From IMG/VR virus record IMGVR_UViG_2609459850_000003: 8,164 nt of DNA, one strand, 5' to 3'. Under the pieces are notes generated by a model. The model ran no database searches. It was not told the origin of the DNA and saw only the letters and a list, made by a program, of their open reading frames with translations. Shown here in pieces: positions 443 to 8,164 of the stretch. The position numbers and the translations under genes were made by a program. Origin of the DNA: a virus (lineage: Duplodnaviria; Heunggongvirae; Uroviricota; Caudoviricetes). The first letter of the stretch is position 1. Every line of letters begins with the position of its first letter.

Positions 443-1470
<1,028 letters not shown>

Positions 1471-1583
1471 GGATATTTATCAGGATTTATCGGCTTCAAA
1501 TCCCCGGATATGTTAAATCTTACCTCACCAGTGATGGGCACTGGCGGGAGGAGGATGTCAATCTGATAAACACAGAGGCGACT

Positions 1584-1844
1584 ATGGATTACACAAATCT
1601 ACCTAAACAAACTTTTGCTGATTTAATCGCACTCAGGCAAGCAGTCGTAGCTCTAATCAACTTGTTGCCGGAGAAGGAAAAGGAATTAGTTAAAGCGCTT
1701 CTTAACAGAACTGCCGCCGATTTTTCATCATATCCACTGACAGATGACCTTGCGGACCTTCCTGAATTAATTGCAGCGTCCGCCAATAAGCTTACTGAAG
1801 AGATTTACCCTCCTCAAAAATCTTCACAAAATTCCTGCGAGTAA
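1584..1844 (+). CDS. Possible small acidic helical protein (86 aa), antisense to the lysis operon; hypothetical
   Basis: ATG at 1584 is preceded by AGAGG at 1574-1578 (5-nt spacer). The translation has amphipathic-helix character (LIALRQAVVALINLLPEKEKELVKALL). Its 3' 53 nt overlap the convergent 183-aa ORF, and the C-terminal tail looks low-complexity. It occupies an otherwise unexplained gap of about 320 bp between the endolysin and the upstream ORF. Confidence 0.3.
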   Translation: MDYTNLPKQTFADLIALRQAVVALINLLPEKEKELVKALLNRTAADFSSYPLTDDLADLPELIAASANKLTEEIYPPQKSSQNSCE

Positions 1845-2343
1845 CTTCAATGCAATAATCGTAAAACGCCGCAAACTGCTCATCGCGGCGTTTTTTTTCA
1901 TCTTCAGAAGGAATCAGCACCGACAATTTTTTATTCAGATCAGCGACGCTGCCCTCCAGTTTTTCAATGGGCGATTCAATATCATCTTTTTCTGACCGCA
2001 ATGCCGTCGGTGGCGTCTTCAGAGAACCAGTAATTCTTCCCGGTAGCTTTCCTTTGTAGGTTATCCACACATTCTGCGCCTCTAAAATTATGGGGCGCTT
2101 TTCCGGCGACTGCTCATCCCCTTCACATAACCCGGCAGCAACATCCAGGAAGACCTGTCTGATGCTCCTTCTGGCTGCTGCCTCATAAAACTCCAGCGCG
2201 GCACCTTCAACACGGTCCAGCGAGATGTCCAGGTCAAAAATTTCACCGTCAAAGTGTTTTTTGTCCCGTAAGGCTACAGTTACCGCCACTTTATTCTCAA
2301 AATTGCGAACTCCTTTCACAACCAGTTCATAGTCTTGAGTCAT
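1792..2343 (-). CDS. Hypothetical phage protein (183 aa) located between holin and endolysin
   Basis: Long ORF on the lysis-operon strand; first ATG at 2343 lies 4 nt after the holin stop, with a purine-rich GAGAG upstream (the ORF track's 2364 start is TTG). Mixed charged and hydrophobic composition, no transmembrane segment seen by eye, no family recognised. Occupies the slot of ydfR in K-12 Qin but is much longer. Confidence 0.6.
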   Translation of the reverse strand: MTQDYELVVKGVRNFENKVAVTVALRDKKHFDGEIFDLDISLDRVEGAALEFYEAAARRSIRQVFLDVAAGLCEGDEQSPEKRPIILEAQNVWITYKGKLPGRITGSLKTPPTALRSEKDDIESPIEKLEGSVADLNKKLSVLIPSEDEKKRRDEQFAAFYDYCIEVTRRNFVKIFEEGKSLQ

Positions 2344-2753: not shown

Positions 2754-3467
2754 CTAAGAAAATCTTGATAAATATTGGCGCGGAGGCACACCAAAATATC
2801 CTCTAAAAACACTTACAAAATATGATGCATTGTCATACCCGCATATTCCCGCCACCTTGCCGACAGTATGGTTACTGTAGATCAATAATCTTTGCGCCAT
2901 CATCATTCGTTCTTCAAGAATTAATTTACTAAACGATAACCCTTCGTCTTTTAATTTTCTTTTTAACAAACTCTCGCTCATATATAATCTTGAAGATATA
3001 TCACAAAGTCTCCATGACGCTGAGATATCCGAGTGAATAATAGCCTTAACTTTACAACCTAAGCTATTAAGACTTCCGAACAAAAAACTTTGCACTATTT
3101 TCTCTGAAGATAAGACAGCAAGACATGCAAGTGATATTTGATTTCTAACTACATCCACGGTTTTGCTATCACAATTCAAGCATGCAACCAAGTTCCTTAA
3201 CAAGGAAAAATCTTCACATTCTACTATCAAGTATGACGGATAAAACCTTCTTACAGAAAAAGGTGAGAGTGTGTAGTTTTTAAAGAAATCATTAACTGTT
3301 TTCTCCTCAACATCTACGATCATTAGATGATCTGTATTTGACGAAAAAAGATCTTTTAAATTGTATTCAATGAGGACAGCATTTCCTTTTTTAAACAAAA
3401 TATCTTCTTTACCAATTCGGACACCAAACGAGTTCAACACCAAAATGATAGAACATATGTATGGCAT
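2754..3467 (-). CDS. AraC/XylS-family transcriptional regulator (AppY/EnvY/Rns-like), AT-rich xenogeneic gene
   Basis: ATG at 3467 with RBS AGGTGG 5 nt upstream (the ORF-track start at 3476 is GTG). The C-terminal roughly 100 aa carry the double helix-turn-helix signature of the AraC family (...SFSKLILEERMMMAQRLLIYSNHTVGKVAGICGYDNASYFVSVFRGYFGVPPRQY). The gene and about 400 bp upstream are visibly AT-rich. Confidence 0.85.
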   Translation of the reverse strand: MPYICSIILVLNSFGVRIGKEDILFKKGNAVLIEYNLKDLFSSNTDHLMIVDVEEKTVNDFFKNYTLSPFSVRRFYPSYLIVECEDFSLLRNLVACLNCDSKTVDVVRNQISLACLAVLSSEKIVQSFLFGSLNSLGCKVKAIIHSDISASWRLCDISSRLYMSESLLKRKLKDEGLSFSKLILEERMMMAQRLLIYSNHTVGKVAGICGYDNASYFVSVFRGYFGVPPRQYLSRFS

Positions 3468-3873
3468 ATTATCCACCTGATATCATTGGGGTTACACCAG
3501 GTAAGTATAGGTGGAAAATCAATATTCGCCAGTTCAACAATAAGGAAAATCTCATTGCATCACAACTATAAAACCATGTGTTTAACTCACAAAAAACAAA
3601 TCATTAAACTAATCTGTTATATTATAATAGCTGCGTGCAATAATAATATTATATGCTCTTAATATTCACTTGAAATATCTTCATATAAAAACAGATTGAA
3701 TAAAATCTTTTGGGGCTGGTATGTTTACCAACATTAAATTGCATCTCAATGTTTTCTTTAGCGTGAACAGGATTTTTATACAAACTGACACTATGGGCAT
3801 CATAGCGTAGTTTTTACGATTGTAAATATCCTGCATACAGGAACTCATCACTTTCAGATGATATCGCATACAG

Positions 3874-4833
3874 TTAATTCACCATCAGTCTTAGAGCCAG
3901 TTCTTCCGGATAGGGATCGAAGTAATTCTGTGTAAGCAAGTAATCATTAGGATACTCACCCAGATAATGCTTCAGCAGAGTCAACGGCGCAAGAAGAGGC
4001 AATGTGCCAAAGCGATAGTTAAGTATAACCTCGCTCAACTCTTTACGCTGGCGTGTACTTAAGTAATTACTAAAATACCCCTGTATATGCATCAGCACAT
4101 TCGTGTGATTTTTACGTGATGCTGGTTTTCTGAGAATCGCCATCAGATTATCACGATACACCTCAAAGTATGATTCAAGGTCCGCCCACTCGTGTATTGC
4201 AGCCACAAATGGTCCCATATCTTTATAGCCTGCCTGGCTATGCGCCAACAACTGAAGCTTATAACGACTATGAAAAGCTAATAACTCTCTTCTTGATAAT
4301 TTCTCCTTGTAAAGATGATTGAGCTCATGCAAAGCAAAAACTCTTTCAATAAAATTCTCACGAAGCACTGGATCATGTAATCGCCCATCCTCTTCAACCG
4401 GTAGCCAGGAAAACTTTTCCATCAAAGTGCTCGTAAATAGTCCCACTCCATCTTTACGACCTCGATTACCATTTTCATCATAGACACGCACGCGCTCCAT
4501 GCCACAGCTGGGAGATTTAGCACAAACCACAAACCCCGATACATCCTTTAATTTGTCCATATAAGAACGACTAAACTCTGTCATTCTCTCTGTCACATCC
4601 TCATTCTGGTCGTGGCTGAAACACATCCGTATATTTCCTTGCTTCGAGCGCACAAGTCGTAGAGCAGGACGCGGAACTGGCAGCCCTATAGCCATTTCCG
4701 GACATACTGGTCTGAATGTTACCCATTCCACTAATTTGTCCATTAAAAAGTCATCTCTTTTGTGACCACCATCAAAACGAACAGCAGAACCGCCCAAACA
4801 ACCGCTGATCCCAATCACAGGTTTTTTTATCAT
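3874..4833 (-). CDS. DUF523 (TudS-like [4Fe-4S] thionucleobase desulfidase) fused to DUF1722 (YbgA-like); RudS-like
   Basis: 319-aa ORF; ATG at 4833 with strong RBS GGGGGAGG. N-terminus MIKKPVIGISGCLGGSAVRFDGGHK...PVCPE...KSPSCG matches the recalled DUF523/TudS pattern with three conserved Cys positioned as Fe-S ligands. The C-terminal roughly 170 aa are helical, consistent with DUF1722. The domain call is from recalled signatures, not a search. Confidence 0.75.
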   Translation of the reverse strand: MIKKPVIGISGCLGGSAVRFDGGHKRDDFLMDKLVEWVTFRPVCPEMAIGLPVPRPALRLVRSKQGNIRMCFSHDQNEDVTERMTEFSRSYMDKLKDVSGFVVCAKSPSCGMERVRVYDENGNRGRKDGVGLFTSTLMEKFSWLPVEEDGRLHDPVLRENFIERVFALHELNHLYKEKLSRRELLAFHSRYKLQLLAHSQAGYKDMGPFVAAIHEWADLESYFEVYRDNLMAILRKPASRKNHTNVLMHIQGYFSNYLSTRQRKELSEVILNYRFGTLPLLAPLTLLKHYLGEYPNDYLLTQNYFDPYPEELALRLMVN

Positions 4834-5025
4834 TTCCTCCCCCTTGACTAATTCATTAACACATAAACTTTGTAGTGCACGGACTAAATTGCCTTTCTGG
4901 CTTCATCACTGACAATTTTTCTGTTATTGACTATTCCTAATATAGTAGGAAAGTTCTTTAAGTGATCGGTCGTACTCATCTATCTTTCATACTTACTCTC
5001 AACTATCAAAAGTACAGGATTTATT
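4834..5025. promoter_or_regulatory. Divergent intergenic region between the DUF523-DUF1722 gene (-) and the lipocalin gene (+); presumed promoters and operators
   Basis: 192-bp AT-rich spacer between divergently oriented start codons. Contains TTGACT-like hexamers (for example 4927-4932) and an imperfect direct repeat TGACAAT (4910-4916) / TGACTAT (4928-4934). No promoter could be assigned confidently by eye. Confidence 0.35.
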
Positions 5026-5550
5026 ATGAAGTTATGGCCTGTGTTGACTGGCATTGCACTCTCTTTCACTCTTATAGCATGTAAGGCCCCGACACCACCT
5101 AAAGGTGTGCAGCCGATTACAAATTTTGACGCCAACCGCTACCTCGGAAAATGGTATGAAATAGCTCGCCTCGAGAACTGGTTCGAACGTGGTCTGGAAC
5201 AGGTCAGCGCTACTTATGAAAAACGGAACGACGGAGGGATTCGCGTACTTAACCGTGGATACGATCCAACGAAAAACAAATGGAGCGAGAGCGAAGGTAA
5301 AGCATACTTTACTGGAGATACTAAAACTGCAGCGTTGAAAGTTTCGTTTTTTGGCCCCTTCTATGGTGGCTATAATGTAATCAAACTGGATGATGAGTAT
5401 AAGTATGCTCTTGTCAGTGGTCCGAACAGAGAATACCTATGGATTCTGGCAAGGACCCAAACTATTCCAGATAATGTAAAAGCAGACTATGTGCGTACCG
5501 CTCAAAAGTTGGGATTCAATGTCAATGAACTATTATGGGTTAAACAATAA
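5026..5550 (+). CDS. Bacterial lipocalin (Blc-like outer-membrane lipoprotein)
   Basis: 174-aa ORF; ATG at 5026 with CAGGA 6 nt upstream. Lipoprotein signal with lipobox L-I-A-C. Lipocalin SCR1 motif NFDANRYLGKWYEIARLENWFERG and downstream KVSFFGPFYGGYNVIKLDDEY...YLWILART closely parallel E. coli Blc as recalled. Confidence 0.9.
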   Translation: MKLWPVLTGIALSFTLIACKAPTPPKGVQPITNFDANRYLGKWYEIARLENWFERGLEQVSATYEKRNDGGIRVLNRGYDPTKNKWSESEGKAYFTGDTKTAALKVSFFGPFYGGYNVIKLDDEYKYALVSGPNREYLWILARTQTIPDNVKADYVRTAQKLGFNVNELLWVKQ

Positions 5551-5705: not shown

Positions 5706-6083
5706 TTATTTCGAACAATCAGCATCCATCTCCAATCGGAGATCCAACACCATCAGCATGCCCTCCACTACGCCCTCAGCTTTCTGGAGCATCCTGCCAA
5801 CCCAACAATCAGATCGCCCATGCTTACGTGCAAGCGCCATAAAAGTCATGCCGCCGACATAATAGTCCACCAATAAATCATGTAAATCGCTGTTGTTTTT
5901 TTTCAGGCGAGCCATACATTCACAAATGATCATCGCGTCATCGTCACAGCATTGCGGACGAGATCTTACTTTTGAAGGAATTAATCCCTTAAAACCGGCG
6001 GCAATGGACGACCAGGTCACATCTTCATGATTATTAGCCGCCCATGCCCCCCAACGCTCAAGAACCATCTGAATATCACGCAT
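5706..6083 (-). CDS. Phage late-gene antitermination protein Q (phage 82/21 QuuD-like type)
   Basis: 125 aa from ATG at 6083 with RBS GGAG 7 nt upstream (the ORF-track start at 6098 is TTG). Sequence [24 protein letters not shown]...[32 protein letters not shown] closely resembles DLP12 QuuD as recalled, including the Cys cluster. Located immediately upstream of the late promoter/terminator and lysis genes. Confidence 0.8.
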
Positions 6084-6100
6084 CAACTTACTCCACAAAA

Positions 6101-7830: not shown

Positions 7831-8164
7831 GGTAATGACTCCAACTTACTGATAGTGTTTTATGTTCAGATAATGCCCGATGACTTTGTCATGCAGCTCC
7901 ACCGATTTTGAGAACGACAGCGACTTCCGTCCCAGCCGTGCCAGGTGCTGCCTCAGATTCAGGTTATGCCGCTCAATTCGCTGCGTATATCGCTTGCTGA
8001 TTACGTGCAGCTTTCCCTTCAGGCGGGATTCATACAGCGGCCAGCCATCCGTCATCCATATCACCACGTCAAAGGGTGACAGCAGGCTCATAAGACGCCC
8101 CAGCGTCGCCATAGTGCGTTCACCGAATACGTGCGCAACAACCGTCTTCCGGAGCCTGTCATAC
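7831..8164 (-). mobile_element. IS1 insertion sequence, terminal 334 bp (continues beyond window end)
   Basis: Terminal inverted repeat ggtaatgactccaacttactgatagtg begins at 7831. The following sequence encodes the InsB C-terminus on the minus strand and matches IS1 as recalled nearly base for base. Confidence 0.9.
7846..8164 (-). CDS. insB: IS1 transposase InsB, C-terminal part (5' end outside window)
   Basis: Translation ...[88 protein letters not shown] is the canonical InsB C-terminus. TAA stop at 7846-7848 sits just inside the IS1 terminal repeat. The frame stays open to the window edge. Confidence 0.9.

What the first reader, a model, noticed from the sequence alone, without database searches (positions are those of the whole stretch)
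1471..1844. Unexplained 320-bp gap inside the lysis cassette, with a possible antisense 86-aa ORF and tandem repeats upstream of the endolysin start
Between the endolysin start (1470) and the stop of the 183-aa ORF (1792) there is no minus-strand coding. The plus strand carries an 86-aa ORF (1584-1844) with a good RBS (AGAGG) and a helical, acidic translation, overlapping the convergent gene by 53 nt. The endolysin start codon lacks a recognisable Shine-Dalgarno and is instead preceded on the minus strand by a tandem repeat GATAAATCC-T-GATAAATATCC (plus strand 1471-1491). This could be a binding site, a translational control element, or a small antisense gene or RNA regulating endolysin expression.
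Basis: seen in the sequence. Interest (0 to 1): 0.45.

Follow-up and report, generated by a model that had tools for sequence, protein, structure and literature searches.

The report
Small antisense gene cassette in prophage lysis region
The "gap" in this E. coli prophage's lysis genes holds a real, conserved 86-residue gene of unknown function that reads against the lysis genes; it always travels with a small partner gene on the other strand, so it looks like portable accessory cargo, not an endolysin regulator.

Summary
The window is a Qin-like lambdoid prophage, identical here to E. coli HS. The order on the minus strand is holin, a 183-aa DUF1327 (YdfR) protein, a 321-nt gap, an endolysin without a Shine-Dalgarno, then Rz.

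The plus-strand 86-aa ORF (1584-1844) is a genuine gene:
- It matches phrog_2572 over its full length, and RefSeq already lists it as a hypothetical protein.
- Relatives of 41-55% identity keep only this frame open, with dN/dS about 0.3.
- It has a Shine-Dalgarno, and a conserved hairpin plus T8 starts 19 nt after its stop.

New here: it is half of a portable two-gene cassette. Its 3' end always overlaps, by 53 or 59 nt, a convergent 67-73-aa partner gene. In this window that partner is fused to the end of YdfR. In Salmonella the same pair sits after Rz, far from any endolysin start. This argues against a role in endolysin control.

The tandem ATTTATC repeat is not above chance as a repeat, but it is very conserved. 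It marks the left edge of the cassette and overlaps a weak candidate promoter (TTTATC-17-TATGTT).

Function is unknown; no fold, family or defence match. I read it as moron-type cargo. Moderately interesting.

The parts
1471..1514 (+). Conserved platform: tandem ATTTATC repeat (1475-1481, 1485-1491) and candidate sigma-70 promoter, -35 TTTATC 1486-1491, 17-nt spacer, -10 TATGTT 1509-1514. On the minus strand the same bases are the Shine-Dalgarno-less leader of the endolysin.
   Evidence: Bases 1471-1493 are invariant in 9 diverged endolysin leaders. Motif, hexamers and the 17-nt spacing are kept in Salmonella cassettes, where sequence diverges just left of the motif. It matches the consensus at only 7 of 12 positions and was not called by the scan. 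Promoter function is inferred, not shown.
1523..1551 (+). GC-rich stem-loop (CCTC-A-CCAGTG / ATGGG / CACTGG-CGG-GAGG), placed where the 5' end of the plus-strand transcript would lie.
   Evidence: Folding. Every variant, including the unrelated-cargo loci L010 and L011, has a hairpin of different sequence at this position. Paired changes occur (win CCTC/GAGG versus L012 ACCC/GGGT; Salmonella C:G to A:T). No T-run follows on either strand, so it is not a terminator.
1574..1578 (+). Shine-Dalgarno AGAGG of the 86-aa ORF, 5 nt before the ATG.
   Evidence: anti-SD duplex -5.8 kcal/mol. Relatives have TAAGGA at the same place.
1584..1844 (+). 86-aa gene (phrog_2572; RefSeq WP_001557934.1, hypothetical protein). 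Acidic (pI 4.6), three predicted helices and a disordered tail.
   Evidence: phrog_2572 full length, E 4e-53. Annotated in E. coli HS. Homologues P0019 and P0021 at 49% and 41% identity in alignment A1 (55% and 41% over the matched stretches), with 28 invariant columns. Only this frame is open in 5 diverged loci, and dN/dS is 0.30-0.38 on pairs with dS above 1. Intact in 69 of 74 IMG/VR loci. AlphaFold2 gives helices 8-27, 30-48 and 56-74 at pLDDT 72.
1863..1898 (+). Terminator-like hairpin AAAACGCCGC / 12-nt loop / GCGGCGTTTT within a run of 8 T. It starts 19 nt after the ORF's stop and lies inside the partner's coding sequence (KRRDEQFAAF).
   Evidence: -15.4 kcal/mol, z -3.2, 0 of 200 shuffles fold as well. 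It is present 19-24 nt after the stop in all cassettes. The stem is identical in E. coli and Salmonella although synonymous sites elsewhere are saturated. L017 carries a paired change (CGC to CAC with GCG to GTG). The T-run is strong here and weak in L017.
1792..2007 (-). Partner domain: the C-terminal 71 aa of the 183-aa ORF. It is homologous to stand-alone 67-aa (E. coli) and 73-aa (Salmonella) late-operon proteins, and its last 53 nt overlap the 86-aa ORF.
   Evidence: Alignment A3. The profile search finds stand-alone forms. Contexts: all 12 loci found through the partner alone also carry the antisense ORF, with a 53- or 59-nt overlap.
2008..2343 (-). DUF1327 (YdfR) domain, the N-terminal 112 aa of the 183-aa fusion protein.
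   Evidence: Pfam PF07041, E 2.6e-42, residues 1-112. K-12 YdfR is 103 aa and H-19B's is 115 aa; neither has the extension.
937..1470 (-). Endolysin rrrQ-type lysozyme, 177 aa, whose start abuts the platform.
   Evidence: Pfam Phage_lysozyme, E 2.6e-24. No earlier in-frame start codon. No Shine-Dalgarno.

Best explanation
The gap is filled by an accessory cassette of the moron type, inserted between ydfR and the endolysin gene of a Qin-like lambdoid prophage.

The cassette has two convergent small genes:
- a plus-strand 86-aa gene (phrog_2572) that reads against the late lysis operon;
- a minus-strand partner of about 70 aa that is read as part of the late operon. In this window it is fused in frame to the end of the DUF1327 protein YdfR.

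The 3' ends of the two genes overlap by 53 nt. A GC-rich hairpin followed by T8, embedded in the partner's coding sequence, lies just past the 86-aa gene's stop.

Proposed mechanism:
1. The 86-aa gene is transcribed on its own from the conserved platform that abuts the endolysin start. That platform holds the tandem ATTTATC repeat over a weak -35, a TATGTT -10 placed 17 nt further on, and then a 5' stem-loop and AGAGG.
2. The transcript ends at the embedded hairpin, so it covers only the tail of the partner gene.
3. Like lambda bor, the gene would be expressed in the lysogen. Antiterminated late transcription from the opposite direction would override it after induction.
4. The product is a small acidic three-helix cytoplasmic protein whose target is unknown.

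The cassette's function is not tied to the endolysin. The endolysin's Shine-Dalgarno-less leader simply shares DNA with the cassette's left edge.

Shown: the gene is real and under purifying selection; it is always found with the partner and the overlap; the hairpin is conserved; related phages differ in whether they carry it.
Inferred: the promoter, termination at the hairpin, expression in lysogens, and any biological role.
For: Gene reality:
- phrog_2572 full-length match and a RefSeq annotation.
- An exhaustive HMMER scan found 89-93-aa homologues. The alignment has 28 invariant columns.
- Only the +0 frame is open in five diverged loci. dN/dS is 0.30-0.38 on pairs with about 36 synonymous and 58 non-synonymous differences.
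- It occurs at 80% coverage or more in 294 of 5426 complete E. coli genomes, and is intact in 69 of 74 viral contigs.

Cassette:
- A partner-domain profile retrieved stand-alone 67- and 73-aa proteins.
- All 12 loci fetched through the partner alone carry the antisense ORF with a 53- or 59-nt overlap. The contexts are holin-partner-ORF-endolysin in E. coli and Rz-partner-ORF-cos-terminase in Salmonella; with the YdfR fusion in this window, that makes three gene contexts.

Terminator:
- Hairpin plus T8, z -3.2.
- The stem is identical across genera, and L017 has one paired change that costs two amino-acid changes.

Platform:
- Hexamers and the 17-nt spacing are constant while the spacer varies.
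- Two Salmonella flanks diverge just left of the motif.
- Hairpins of different sequence sit at the same position.
- The same platform precedes two unrelated cargo ORFs: phrog_2411 in E. coli B, and a roughly 210-aa ORF in O26.

Moron traits:
- The cassette is absent from K-12 Qin and from H-19B.
- Its GC content is 41-42%, against 46-52% in the flanks.
Against: - There is no direct evidence of a plus-strand transcript.
- The candidate promoter matches the consensus at only 7 of 12 positions, and the scan did not call it.
- Conservation of the platform could equally reflect a role in translating the endolysin, because H-19B keeps it without any cargo.
- The T-run after the hairpin is poor in L017 and only moderate in Salmonella. 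The conserved stem also encodes the partner's most conserved residues, so protein constraint is not excluded.
- Some copies are broken: a frameshift in L007, an IS3 truncation in L006, and 5' deletions in L104-L106. The gene is therefore dispensable in decaying prophages.
Confidence: 0.6

Rival explanations
1. Endolysin control. The plus-strand gene or its RNA, together with the tandem repeat, regulates translation or timing of the endolysin whose start it abuts.
For: - The endolysin has no Shine-Dalgarno.
- The 23 nt before its ATG are invariant in 9 loci.
- In K-12 the same endolysin is coupled to ydfR by an ATGA overlap. Inserting the cassette removed that coupling, so something else must drive initiation.
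- A polymerase bound at the platform would face the late transcription that heads for the endolysin gene.
Against: - The ORF, motif and partner are conserved as a unit in Salmonella, after Rz and beside cos, with no endolysin start adjacent.
- A transcript from the candidate promoter would not overlap the endolysin's initiation region.
- Active phages (PhiR5_1, PhiR63_1, 2H10) carry the cassette, so it does not prevent lysis.
- Unrelated cargo sits on the same platform in other phages.
Confidence: 0.1
2. The conserved repeat is mainly the endolysin's Shine-Dalgarno-independent initiation region: an A/U-rich, unstructured leader of the kind used through ribosomal protein S1. Its presence at the cassette edge is a by-product of where recombination joined the pieces.
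For: - It lies upstream of this endolysin type in about 2400 E. coli genomes, most of which lack the cassette. H-19B has a 50-nt version.
- The minus-strand leader is not significantly structured (z -1.1).
- The Salmonella copy even keeps an ATG at the position of the endolysin start complement. This suggests it was carried over from an endolysin-adjacent ancestor.
Against: - In Salmonella no gene follows it on the minus strand. It is nevertheless the best-conserved non-coding block there (21 of 23 nt identical to E. coli, against about 60% in the rest of the upstream region), and the 17-nt spacing to TATTGT is kept.
- This rival is compatible with the main explanation, since one stretch of DNA can serve both strands.
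Confidence: 0.35
3. The two cassette proteins are an interacting pair. The 86-aa acidic protein, made in the lysogen, neutralises the late-expressed partner domain. This would resemble an antitoxin or a lysis-modulator inhibitor. Convergent transcription and the 3' overlap would make their expression mutually exclusive.
For: - Strict co-occurrence across three gene contexts and two genera, with the overlap length kept.
- Opposite transcriptional regimes follow from the gene orientation.
- The fusion to YdfR, which binds RNase E and RNA in K-12 (PMC13232886), would bring the partner to a late-phase function.
Against: - In L104-L106 the partner is intact while the ORF has lost its 5' end and platform. 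The partner is thus tolerated without the ORF, although the late operon is silent in lysogens.
- No toxin or antitoxin family or defence-model match.
Confidence: 0.2
4. The ORF is a chance open frame in a non-coding spacer.
For: - It is short, function-blind annotators label it only as hypothetical, and it has no Pfam family.
- One genome has a frameshift.
Against: - Protein homologues at 41-55% identity, dN/dS about 0.3, and a single open frame in all diverged loci.
- A conserved Shine-Dalgarno, and a hairpin just after the stop.
Confidence: 0.03

Closest known systems
Lambdoid-phage morons such as lambda bor, and the morons defined in HK97/HK022 (named from general knowledge; not re-tested here)
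   Same: - An extra gene that some otherwise collinear phages have and others lack.
- It is oriented against the late operon and sits in or next to the lysis cassette. In Salmonella it is exactly where bor lies in lambda, between Rz and cos.
- It has lower GC than its neighbours and is followed by a hairpin plus T-run.
   Different: - It has no signal peptide or lipobox, so it is cytoplasmic, acidic and helical.
- It comes as a convergent pair whose second gene joins, and here fuses into, the late operon.
- The terminator lies inside the partner's coding sequence.
- Neither the promoter nor expression in lysogens has been demonstrated.
phrog_2411, the 90-aa ORF in the same slot of E. coli B-type prophages (WP_000370546.1)
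   Same: - Same position and orientation, on the same conserved platform (repeat, TATGTT, hairpin, Shine-Dalgarno).
- Similar size.
- It also overlaps the 3' end of ydfR convergently, by 35 nt.
   Different: - No detectable homology: BLASTP finds nothing and hhalign probability is 0.6%.
- It has no partner domain; ydfR there is 114 aa.
K-12 Qin prophage ydfR-rrrQ junction
   Same: - Same holin, DUF1327, endolysin and Rz backbone at about 88% identity.
- The endolysin likewise has no Shine-Dalgarno, and ATAAATATC precedes its ATG.
   Different: - There is no gap and no antisense gene.
- The ydfR stop overlaps the rrrQ start (ATGA), giving translational coupling that the cassette-bearing phages have lost.
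Convergent 3'-overlapping RNA pairs that share a bidirectional terminator, such as the par (Fst) locus of pAD1 (from general knowledge)
   Same: Two convergent transcription units whose 3' ends overlap around one hairpin.
   Different: - Both partners here are conserved proteins of 67-93 aa, soluble and charged.
- There is no short hydrophobic toxin and there are no 5' interaction repeats.
- The resemblance is architectural only.
AcrIIC4 anti-CRISPR (PDB 8hns, 7f7p)
   Same: A phage-encoded helical protein of similar length. A profile match covers 62 residues.
   Different: - E is 0.12-0.14, which is not significant.
- This is a lead only.

Membership tests
phrog_2572 (PHROGs, unknown function) | Significant full-length match to the family HMM. 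| tested here: met
   E 4.4e-53, residues 1-86 against profile 1-86 of 86. The remote homologues P0019 and P0021 also match, at 3.5e-27 and 8.5e-40.
Pfam DUF1823 (label used for this ORF in the PhiR5_1 and PhiR12 phage records) | Score at or above the gathering threshold of 25 bits. | tested here: not met
   12.9 bits, E 0.13, and only 39 residues matched. The remote homologues give no hit.
Moron (independent accessory transcription unit in a phage operon) | Present in some and absent from other otherwise collinear phages. | tested here: met
   Absent from K-12 Qin and H-19B, and replaced by other cargo in E. coli B and in O26.
Moron | Own terminator directly downstream. | tested here: met
   A 10-bp stem plus T8 starts 19 nt after the stop, z -3.2. 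The stem is conserved in all cassettes. The T-run is weaker in L014 and poor in L017. Termination itself was not measured.
Moron | Own promoter directly upstream. | tested here: inconclusive
   The scan calls no promoter. The comparison gives TTTATC-17-TAT(GTT/TGT) with constant spacing in E. coli and Salmonella, which is only 7 of 12 matches to the consensus.
Moron | Base composition differs from the flanking genes. | tested here: met
   GC is 0.41-0.42 for the ORF and partner domain, against 0.46-0.52 for holin, DUF1327, endolysin and Rz.
Moron | Expressed from the repressed prophage. | not testable with these tools
   This needs RNA-seq or a reporter in a lysogen.
Toxin-antitoxin or anti-phage defence systems | Match to a known toxin, antitoxin or defence protein model; for type I, a short hydrophobic toxin. 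| tested here: not met
   PADLOC gives 0 families for the ORF, the 183-aa protein, the homologue and the stand-alone partner. Pfam gives none. Both proteins are hydrophilic, GRAVY -0.08 to -1.03.
AcrIIC4 anti-CRISPR | Significant sequence or fold similarity. | tested here: not met
YdfR / DUF1327 (the convergent neighbour) | Pfam PF07041 match above threshold. | tested here: met
   143 bits, residues 1-112. Residues 113-183 are a separate domain, homologous to stand-alone 67- and 73-aa proteins.
Known RNA families (Rfam) | Covariance-model match in 1471-1900. | tested here: not met
   No hit in the interval at E of 1 or below.

The most novel reading that the evidence does not exclude
The cassette is a new kind of two-state switch built from convergent genes. 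In the lysogen, a regulated promoter drives the 86-aa protein. The ATAAA-N5-ATAAA direct repeat has a 10-bp period and lies over the -35, which recalls response-regulator boxes such as CpxR's; that comparison is from memory and untested. The 86-aa protein would hold in check the late-expressed partner domain, which is tethered here to the RNase E- and RNA-binding YdfR. After induction, antiterminated late transcription would collide with and silence the antisense gene, freeing the partner to act on host RNA metabolism or on lysis timing. In that reading the shared DNA at the endolysin start links envelope or stress signals to the lysis decision.
Probability: 0.08. Interest if true: 0.7.

Novelty: new member of a known kind. 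Interest (0 to 1): 0.35.

Why it matters
- It turns an "unexplained gap" into a defined, testable unit: a conserved small gene of unknown function with mapped candidate signals, found in about 5% of complete E. coli genomes and in Salmonella prophages.
- It shows that the ydfR-endolysin junction is a slot where a common platform carries interchangeable antisense cargo. At least three unrelated ORFs use it.
- It corrects two annotations. The DUF1823 label for the ORF is unsupported. The 183-aa YdfR fusion, called a pseudogene in E. coli HS, is an intact DUF1327-plus-partner fusion.
- If the two cassette proteins interact, or the platform is regulated, it would be a compact example of convergent-gene control inside a phage late operon. 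As it stands it is accessory cargo of unknown role.

Tried and rejected
- Function by homology: Pfam, NCBIfam and PADLOC on the ORF, its remote homologues and the partner gave no significant family.
- AcrIIC4 resemblance: E 0.12, rejected as not significant.
- Homology between the 86-aa ORF and the 90-aa ORF of E. coli B: BLASTP found nothing and hhalign probability was 0.6%. Rejected.
- P0020, a 975-aa TPR/CHAT protein with 8 matched stretches: judged a repeat artefact.
- RNA-element readings: no Rfam hit. The minus-strand leader fold is not significant, z -1.1. The 18-nt inverted repeat 1486-1503 / 1553-1570 is broken without compensation in the 91% allele, judged by reading the alignment.
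- 24-aa minus-strand ORF ending ATGA on the endolysin start: it has no Shine-Dalgarno, and the L012, L004 and L008 alleles have no start codon for it. Rejected as a conserved coupling device.
- Tandem repeat as a statistically unusual repeat: it is not.
- One-genome-per-species scan: only E. coli was recovered. This undercounts, because Salmonella copies were found by other routes.
- Literature: no paper on this ORF was found. The only relevant item was YdfR binding RNase E and RNA.

Full report
**Context.** The 521 bases around the finding are 100% identical to E. coli HS and many other E. coli chromosomes, and 99-100% identical to the phages PhiR63_1 and 2H10. On the minus strand the window carries a lambdoid late region:
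- Q antiterminator, 5706-6098
- cargo genes: a lipocalin, a YbgA-like protein and an AraC-type regulator
- class II holin, 2348-2563
- a 183-aa DUF1327 (YdfR) protein, 1792-2343
- the gap
- a 177-aa lysozyme, 937-1470
- Rz (DUF2514), 443-940

**Checking the observation.** All the stated features are present.
- The gap 1471-1791 is 321 nt.
- The 86-aa ORF runs 1584-1844, with AGAGG 5 nt upstream, and overlaps the convergent gene by 53 nt.
- The endolysin has no usable Shine-Dalgarno. Its anti-SD duplex is +0.6 kcal/mol, against -4.5 to -10.8 for the other lysis genes.
- GATAAATCC-T-GATAAATATCC precedes the endolysin ATG.
- As a repeat, this is not above chance: 8 such close 7-mer repeats in the window, against 5.0 +/- 2.9 simulated.
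- The minus-strand ORFs in the gap (24 aa and 65 aa) have no support. The first has no Shine-Dalgarno and its start codon is not conserved. The frame of the second has 2-3 stops in all five loci compared.

**The ORF is a real gene.**
- RefSeq annotates it as hypothetical protein WP_001557934.1 in E. coli HS.
- It matches PHROG family 2572 end to end, E 4e-53.
- The "DUF1823" label used in some phage records is not supported: 12.9 bits against a cut-off of 25.
- Word-indexed searching found only near-identical E. coli proteins. An exhaustive HMMER scan of 1.8 billion representatives then found 93- and 89-aa homologues, 49% and 41% identical to the ORF in alignment A1. That alignment has 28 invariant columns, mostly in helices 1 and 2.
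- In five diverged loci only the +0 frame is free of stops. Nei-Gojobori dN/dS is 0.30-0.38 on pairs with dS above 1, for example 36 synonymous against 58 non-synonymous differences over 60 and 198 sites. It is 0.31-0.53 between the closer E. coli alleles.
- The ORF is intact in 69 of 74 IMG/VR loci. The element is in 294 of 5426 complete E. coli genomes.
- Broken copies exist in decaying prophages: a 1-nt deletion in L007 and an IS3 truncation in L006.

**It is half of a conserved convergent pair.** This is the main new result.
- In the metagenomic relative L014, the homologous ORF overlaps by 59 nt the 3' end of a stand-alone 73-aa minus-strand gene. That gene's sequence aligns with the last 71 residues of the window's 183-aa "YdfR", for example EQKRRDENEAALY...VRNFQKLK against EKKRRDEQFAAFY...RRNFVKIF.
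- In L017 the same domain is fused to a K-12-type YdfR.
- A profile of this partner domain retrieved stand-alone 67-aa proteins in E. coli and 73-aa proteins in Salmonella enterica.
- I fetched 12 loci for six partner variants, using the partner alone as the key. Every one carries the antisense ORF with a 53- or 59-nt overlap.
- Counting the fusion in this window, there are three gene contexts: holin / partner / ORF / endolysin in E. coli Stx-like prophages; DUF1327-partner fusion / ORF / endolysin here; and GH19 endolysin / Rz / partner / ORF / cos / terminase in Salmonella.
- In three Salmonella loci the ORF's 5' end and upstream region are deleted while the partner stays intact.
- The ORF's last dozen or so residues, which are encoded antisense to the partner's tail, are predicted to be disordered and are poorly conserved.

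**Signals around the ORF.**
- Downstream: a 10-bp hairpin with a 12-nt loop, inside a run of eight T, starts 19 nt after the stop (1863-1898; -15.4 kcal/mol, z -3.2).
  - It lies in the codons for the partner's KRRDE..AAF motif.
  - The stem is nucleotide-identical between E. coli and Salmonella, although synonymous sites elsewhere are saturated.
  - L017 has CGC to CAC (Arg to His) paired with GCG to GTG (Ala to Val), which keeps the pair.
  - The T-run is strong here, moderate in Salmonella and poor in L017.
- Upstream: the block ATG(G/T)ATATTTATCAGG(A/C)TTTATC is the best-conserved non-coding part.
  - In Salmonella, two unrelated left flanks diverge immediately to its left, so it marks the cassette's edge.
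  - TTTATC, exactly 17 variable bases, and then TATGTT (TATTGT in Salmonella) recur in every variant. This pattern suggests a weak sigma-70 promoter, but it matches the consensus at only 7 of 12 positions and the scan did not call it.
  - Just after it, every variant has a GC-rich hairpin of different sequence, with some paired changes and no T-run on either strand. That fits a 5' stem-loop of a plus-strand mRNA.
- The same platform precedes two unrelated cargo ORFs. One is a 90-aa phrog_2411 ORF in E. coli B-type prophages, with no homology to the 86-aa ORF. The other is a roughly 210-aa ORF in an O26 prophage, which kept the first 12 nt of the 86-aa ORF and the partner domain.
- The cassette's GC content is 41-42%, against 46-52% for its neighbours.

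**The endolysin leader.**
- In K-12 Qin there is no gap. The ydfR stop overlaps the rrrQ ATG (ATGA), so the Shine-Dalgarno-less endolysin is translationally coupled there.
- H-19B has a 115-aa YdfR, a 50-nt leader and no cargo.
- In all endolysin-adjacent variants the 23 nt before the ATG are invariant, apart from a 10-nt duplication in L017.
- The repeat therefore lies in DNA that may serve both strands. It may be an A/U-rich, unstructured initiation region for the endolysin on the minus strand; the leader fold is not significant. It may also be the promoter region of the cargo on the plus strand.
- Its retention in Salmonella, where no gene follows it on the minus strand, shows that the endolysin cannot be the only reason for its conservation.

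**What the product might do.**
- The protein is acidic (pI 4.6, net charge about -5) and has no signal sequence. It is predicted as three helices plus a tail, at pLDDT 68-72.
- The neighbour YdfR of K-12 has been reported to bind the RNase E catalytic domain and RNA (PMC13232886). The function of the partner domain is unknown.

**Interpretation.**
- The best-supported reading is a moron-type accessory cassette. Its antisense gene would be transcribed independently and end at the embedded hairpin, probably in the lysogen. Its partner is read with the late operon.
- The idea that it regulates the endolysin is not supported, because the cassette keeps its structure away from any endolysin.
- A functional pairing of the two proteins is suggested by their strict linkage, but it was not tested.
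- The gene family is already catalogued as hypothetical. The cassette architecture and the shared platform are, as far as two full-text searches showed, undescribed.
- I rate it a new member of a known kind, of moderate interest.

Noticed in passing
window 1792-2343 (minus strand); L001 3629-3964: RefSeq marks the YdfR-family gene of E. coli HS as a pseudogene "missing C-terminus". The ORF is in fact intact at 183 aa: a DUF1327 domain fused to a 71-aa domain that exists as a stand-alone gene elsewhere.
   Followed up: yes
L009 (K-12 MG1655) 863-866: In K-12 Qin the ydfR stop codon overlaps the rrrQ start (ATGA). The Shine-Dalgarno-less endolysin is therefore translationally coupled there, and the cassette-bearing phages have lost this coupling.
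   Followed up: partly
L008 (E. coli O26 RM10386) about 1583-2234, plus strand: An unannotated ORF of about 210 aa (Shine-Dalgarno AGGAG, start MLIYPAAD) sits on the same platform. It replaced the body of the 86-aa ORF but kept its first 12 nt and the partner domain. It has no Pfam, PHROG or PADLOC match. RefSeq annotates nothing across about 1 kb here.
   Followed up: partly
L010 940-1212 and L011 950-1222, plus strand: E. coli B-type prophages carry an unrelated 90-aa antisense ORF (phrog_2411, WP_000370546.1) in the same slot and on the same platform. It overlaps the 3' end of a 114-aa ydfR by 35 nt.
   Followed up: partly
L017 255-275: A 10-nt duplication (ATATCCATCC on the minus strand) lies directly before the endolysin ATG. 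It adds another ATATCC copy to the repeat region.
   Followed up: no
window 1476-1490, minus strand: The repeat can be read as ATAAA-N5-ATAAA with a 10-bp period lying over the candidate -35. This layout recalls boxes of OmpR/PhoB-family response regulators, such as CpxR's GTAAA-N5-GTAAA. The comparison is from memory and was not tested.
   Followed up: no
window 1467-1541, minus strand: A 24-aa GTG ORF ends with TGA overlapping the endolysin ATG. It has no Shine-Dalgarno, and other alleles lack its start codon, so it is probably not a coupling ORF. Its tail ...PINPDKYP is conserved only because it is the invariant leader.
   Followed up: yes
window 2754-5550, 1-215 and 7846-8112: Between Q and the holin, where Stx phages carry stx, this prophage has an AraC-type regulator, a YbgA-like protein (2-thiouracil desulfurase / DUF1722) and, on the opposite strand, a Blc-like lipocalin. 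The window ends hold an IS5-family DDE transposase fragment and an IS1 transposase fragment.
   Followed up: partly
L005 2041-3254 and L006 1818-3031: An IS3-family element has inserted into the cassette region in O145-type prophages. In one it splits the YdfR-partner gene; in another it truncates the 86-aa ORF at codon 64.
   Followed up: partly
L013 (H-19B) 1540-1575: At the junction where H-19B lacks the cassette, GTCTTCAG occurs twice 20 nt apart. H-19B could be a deletion derivative of a cassette-bearing ancestor.
   Followed up: no
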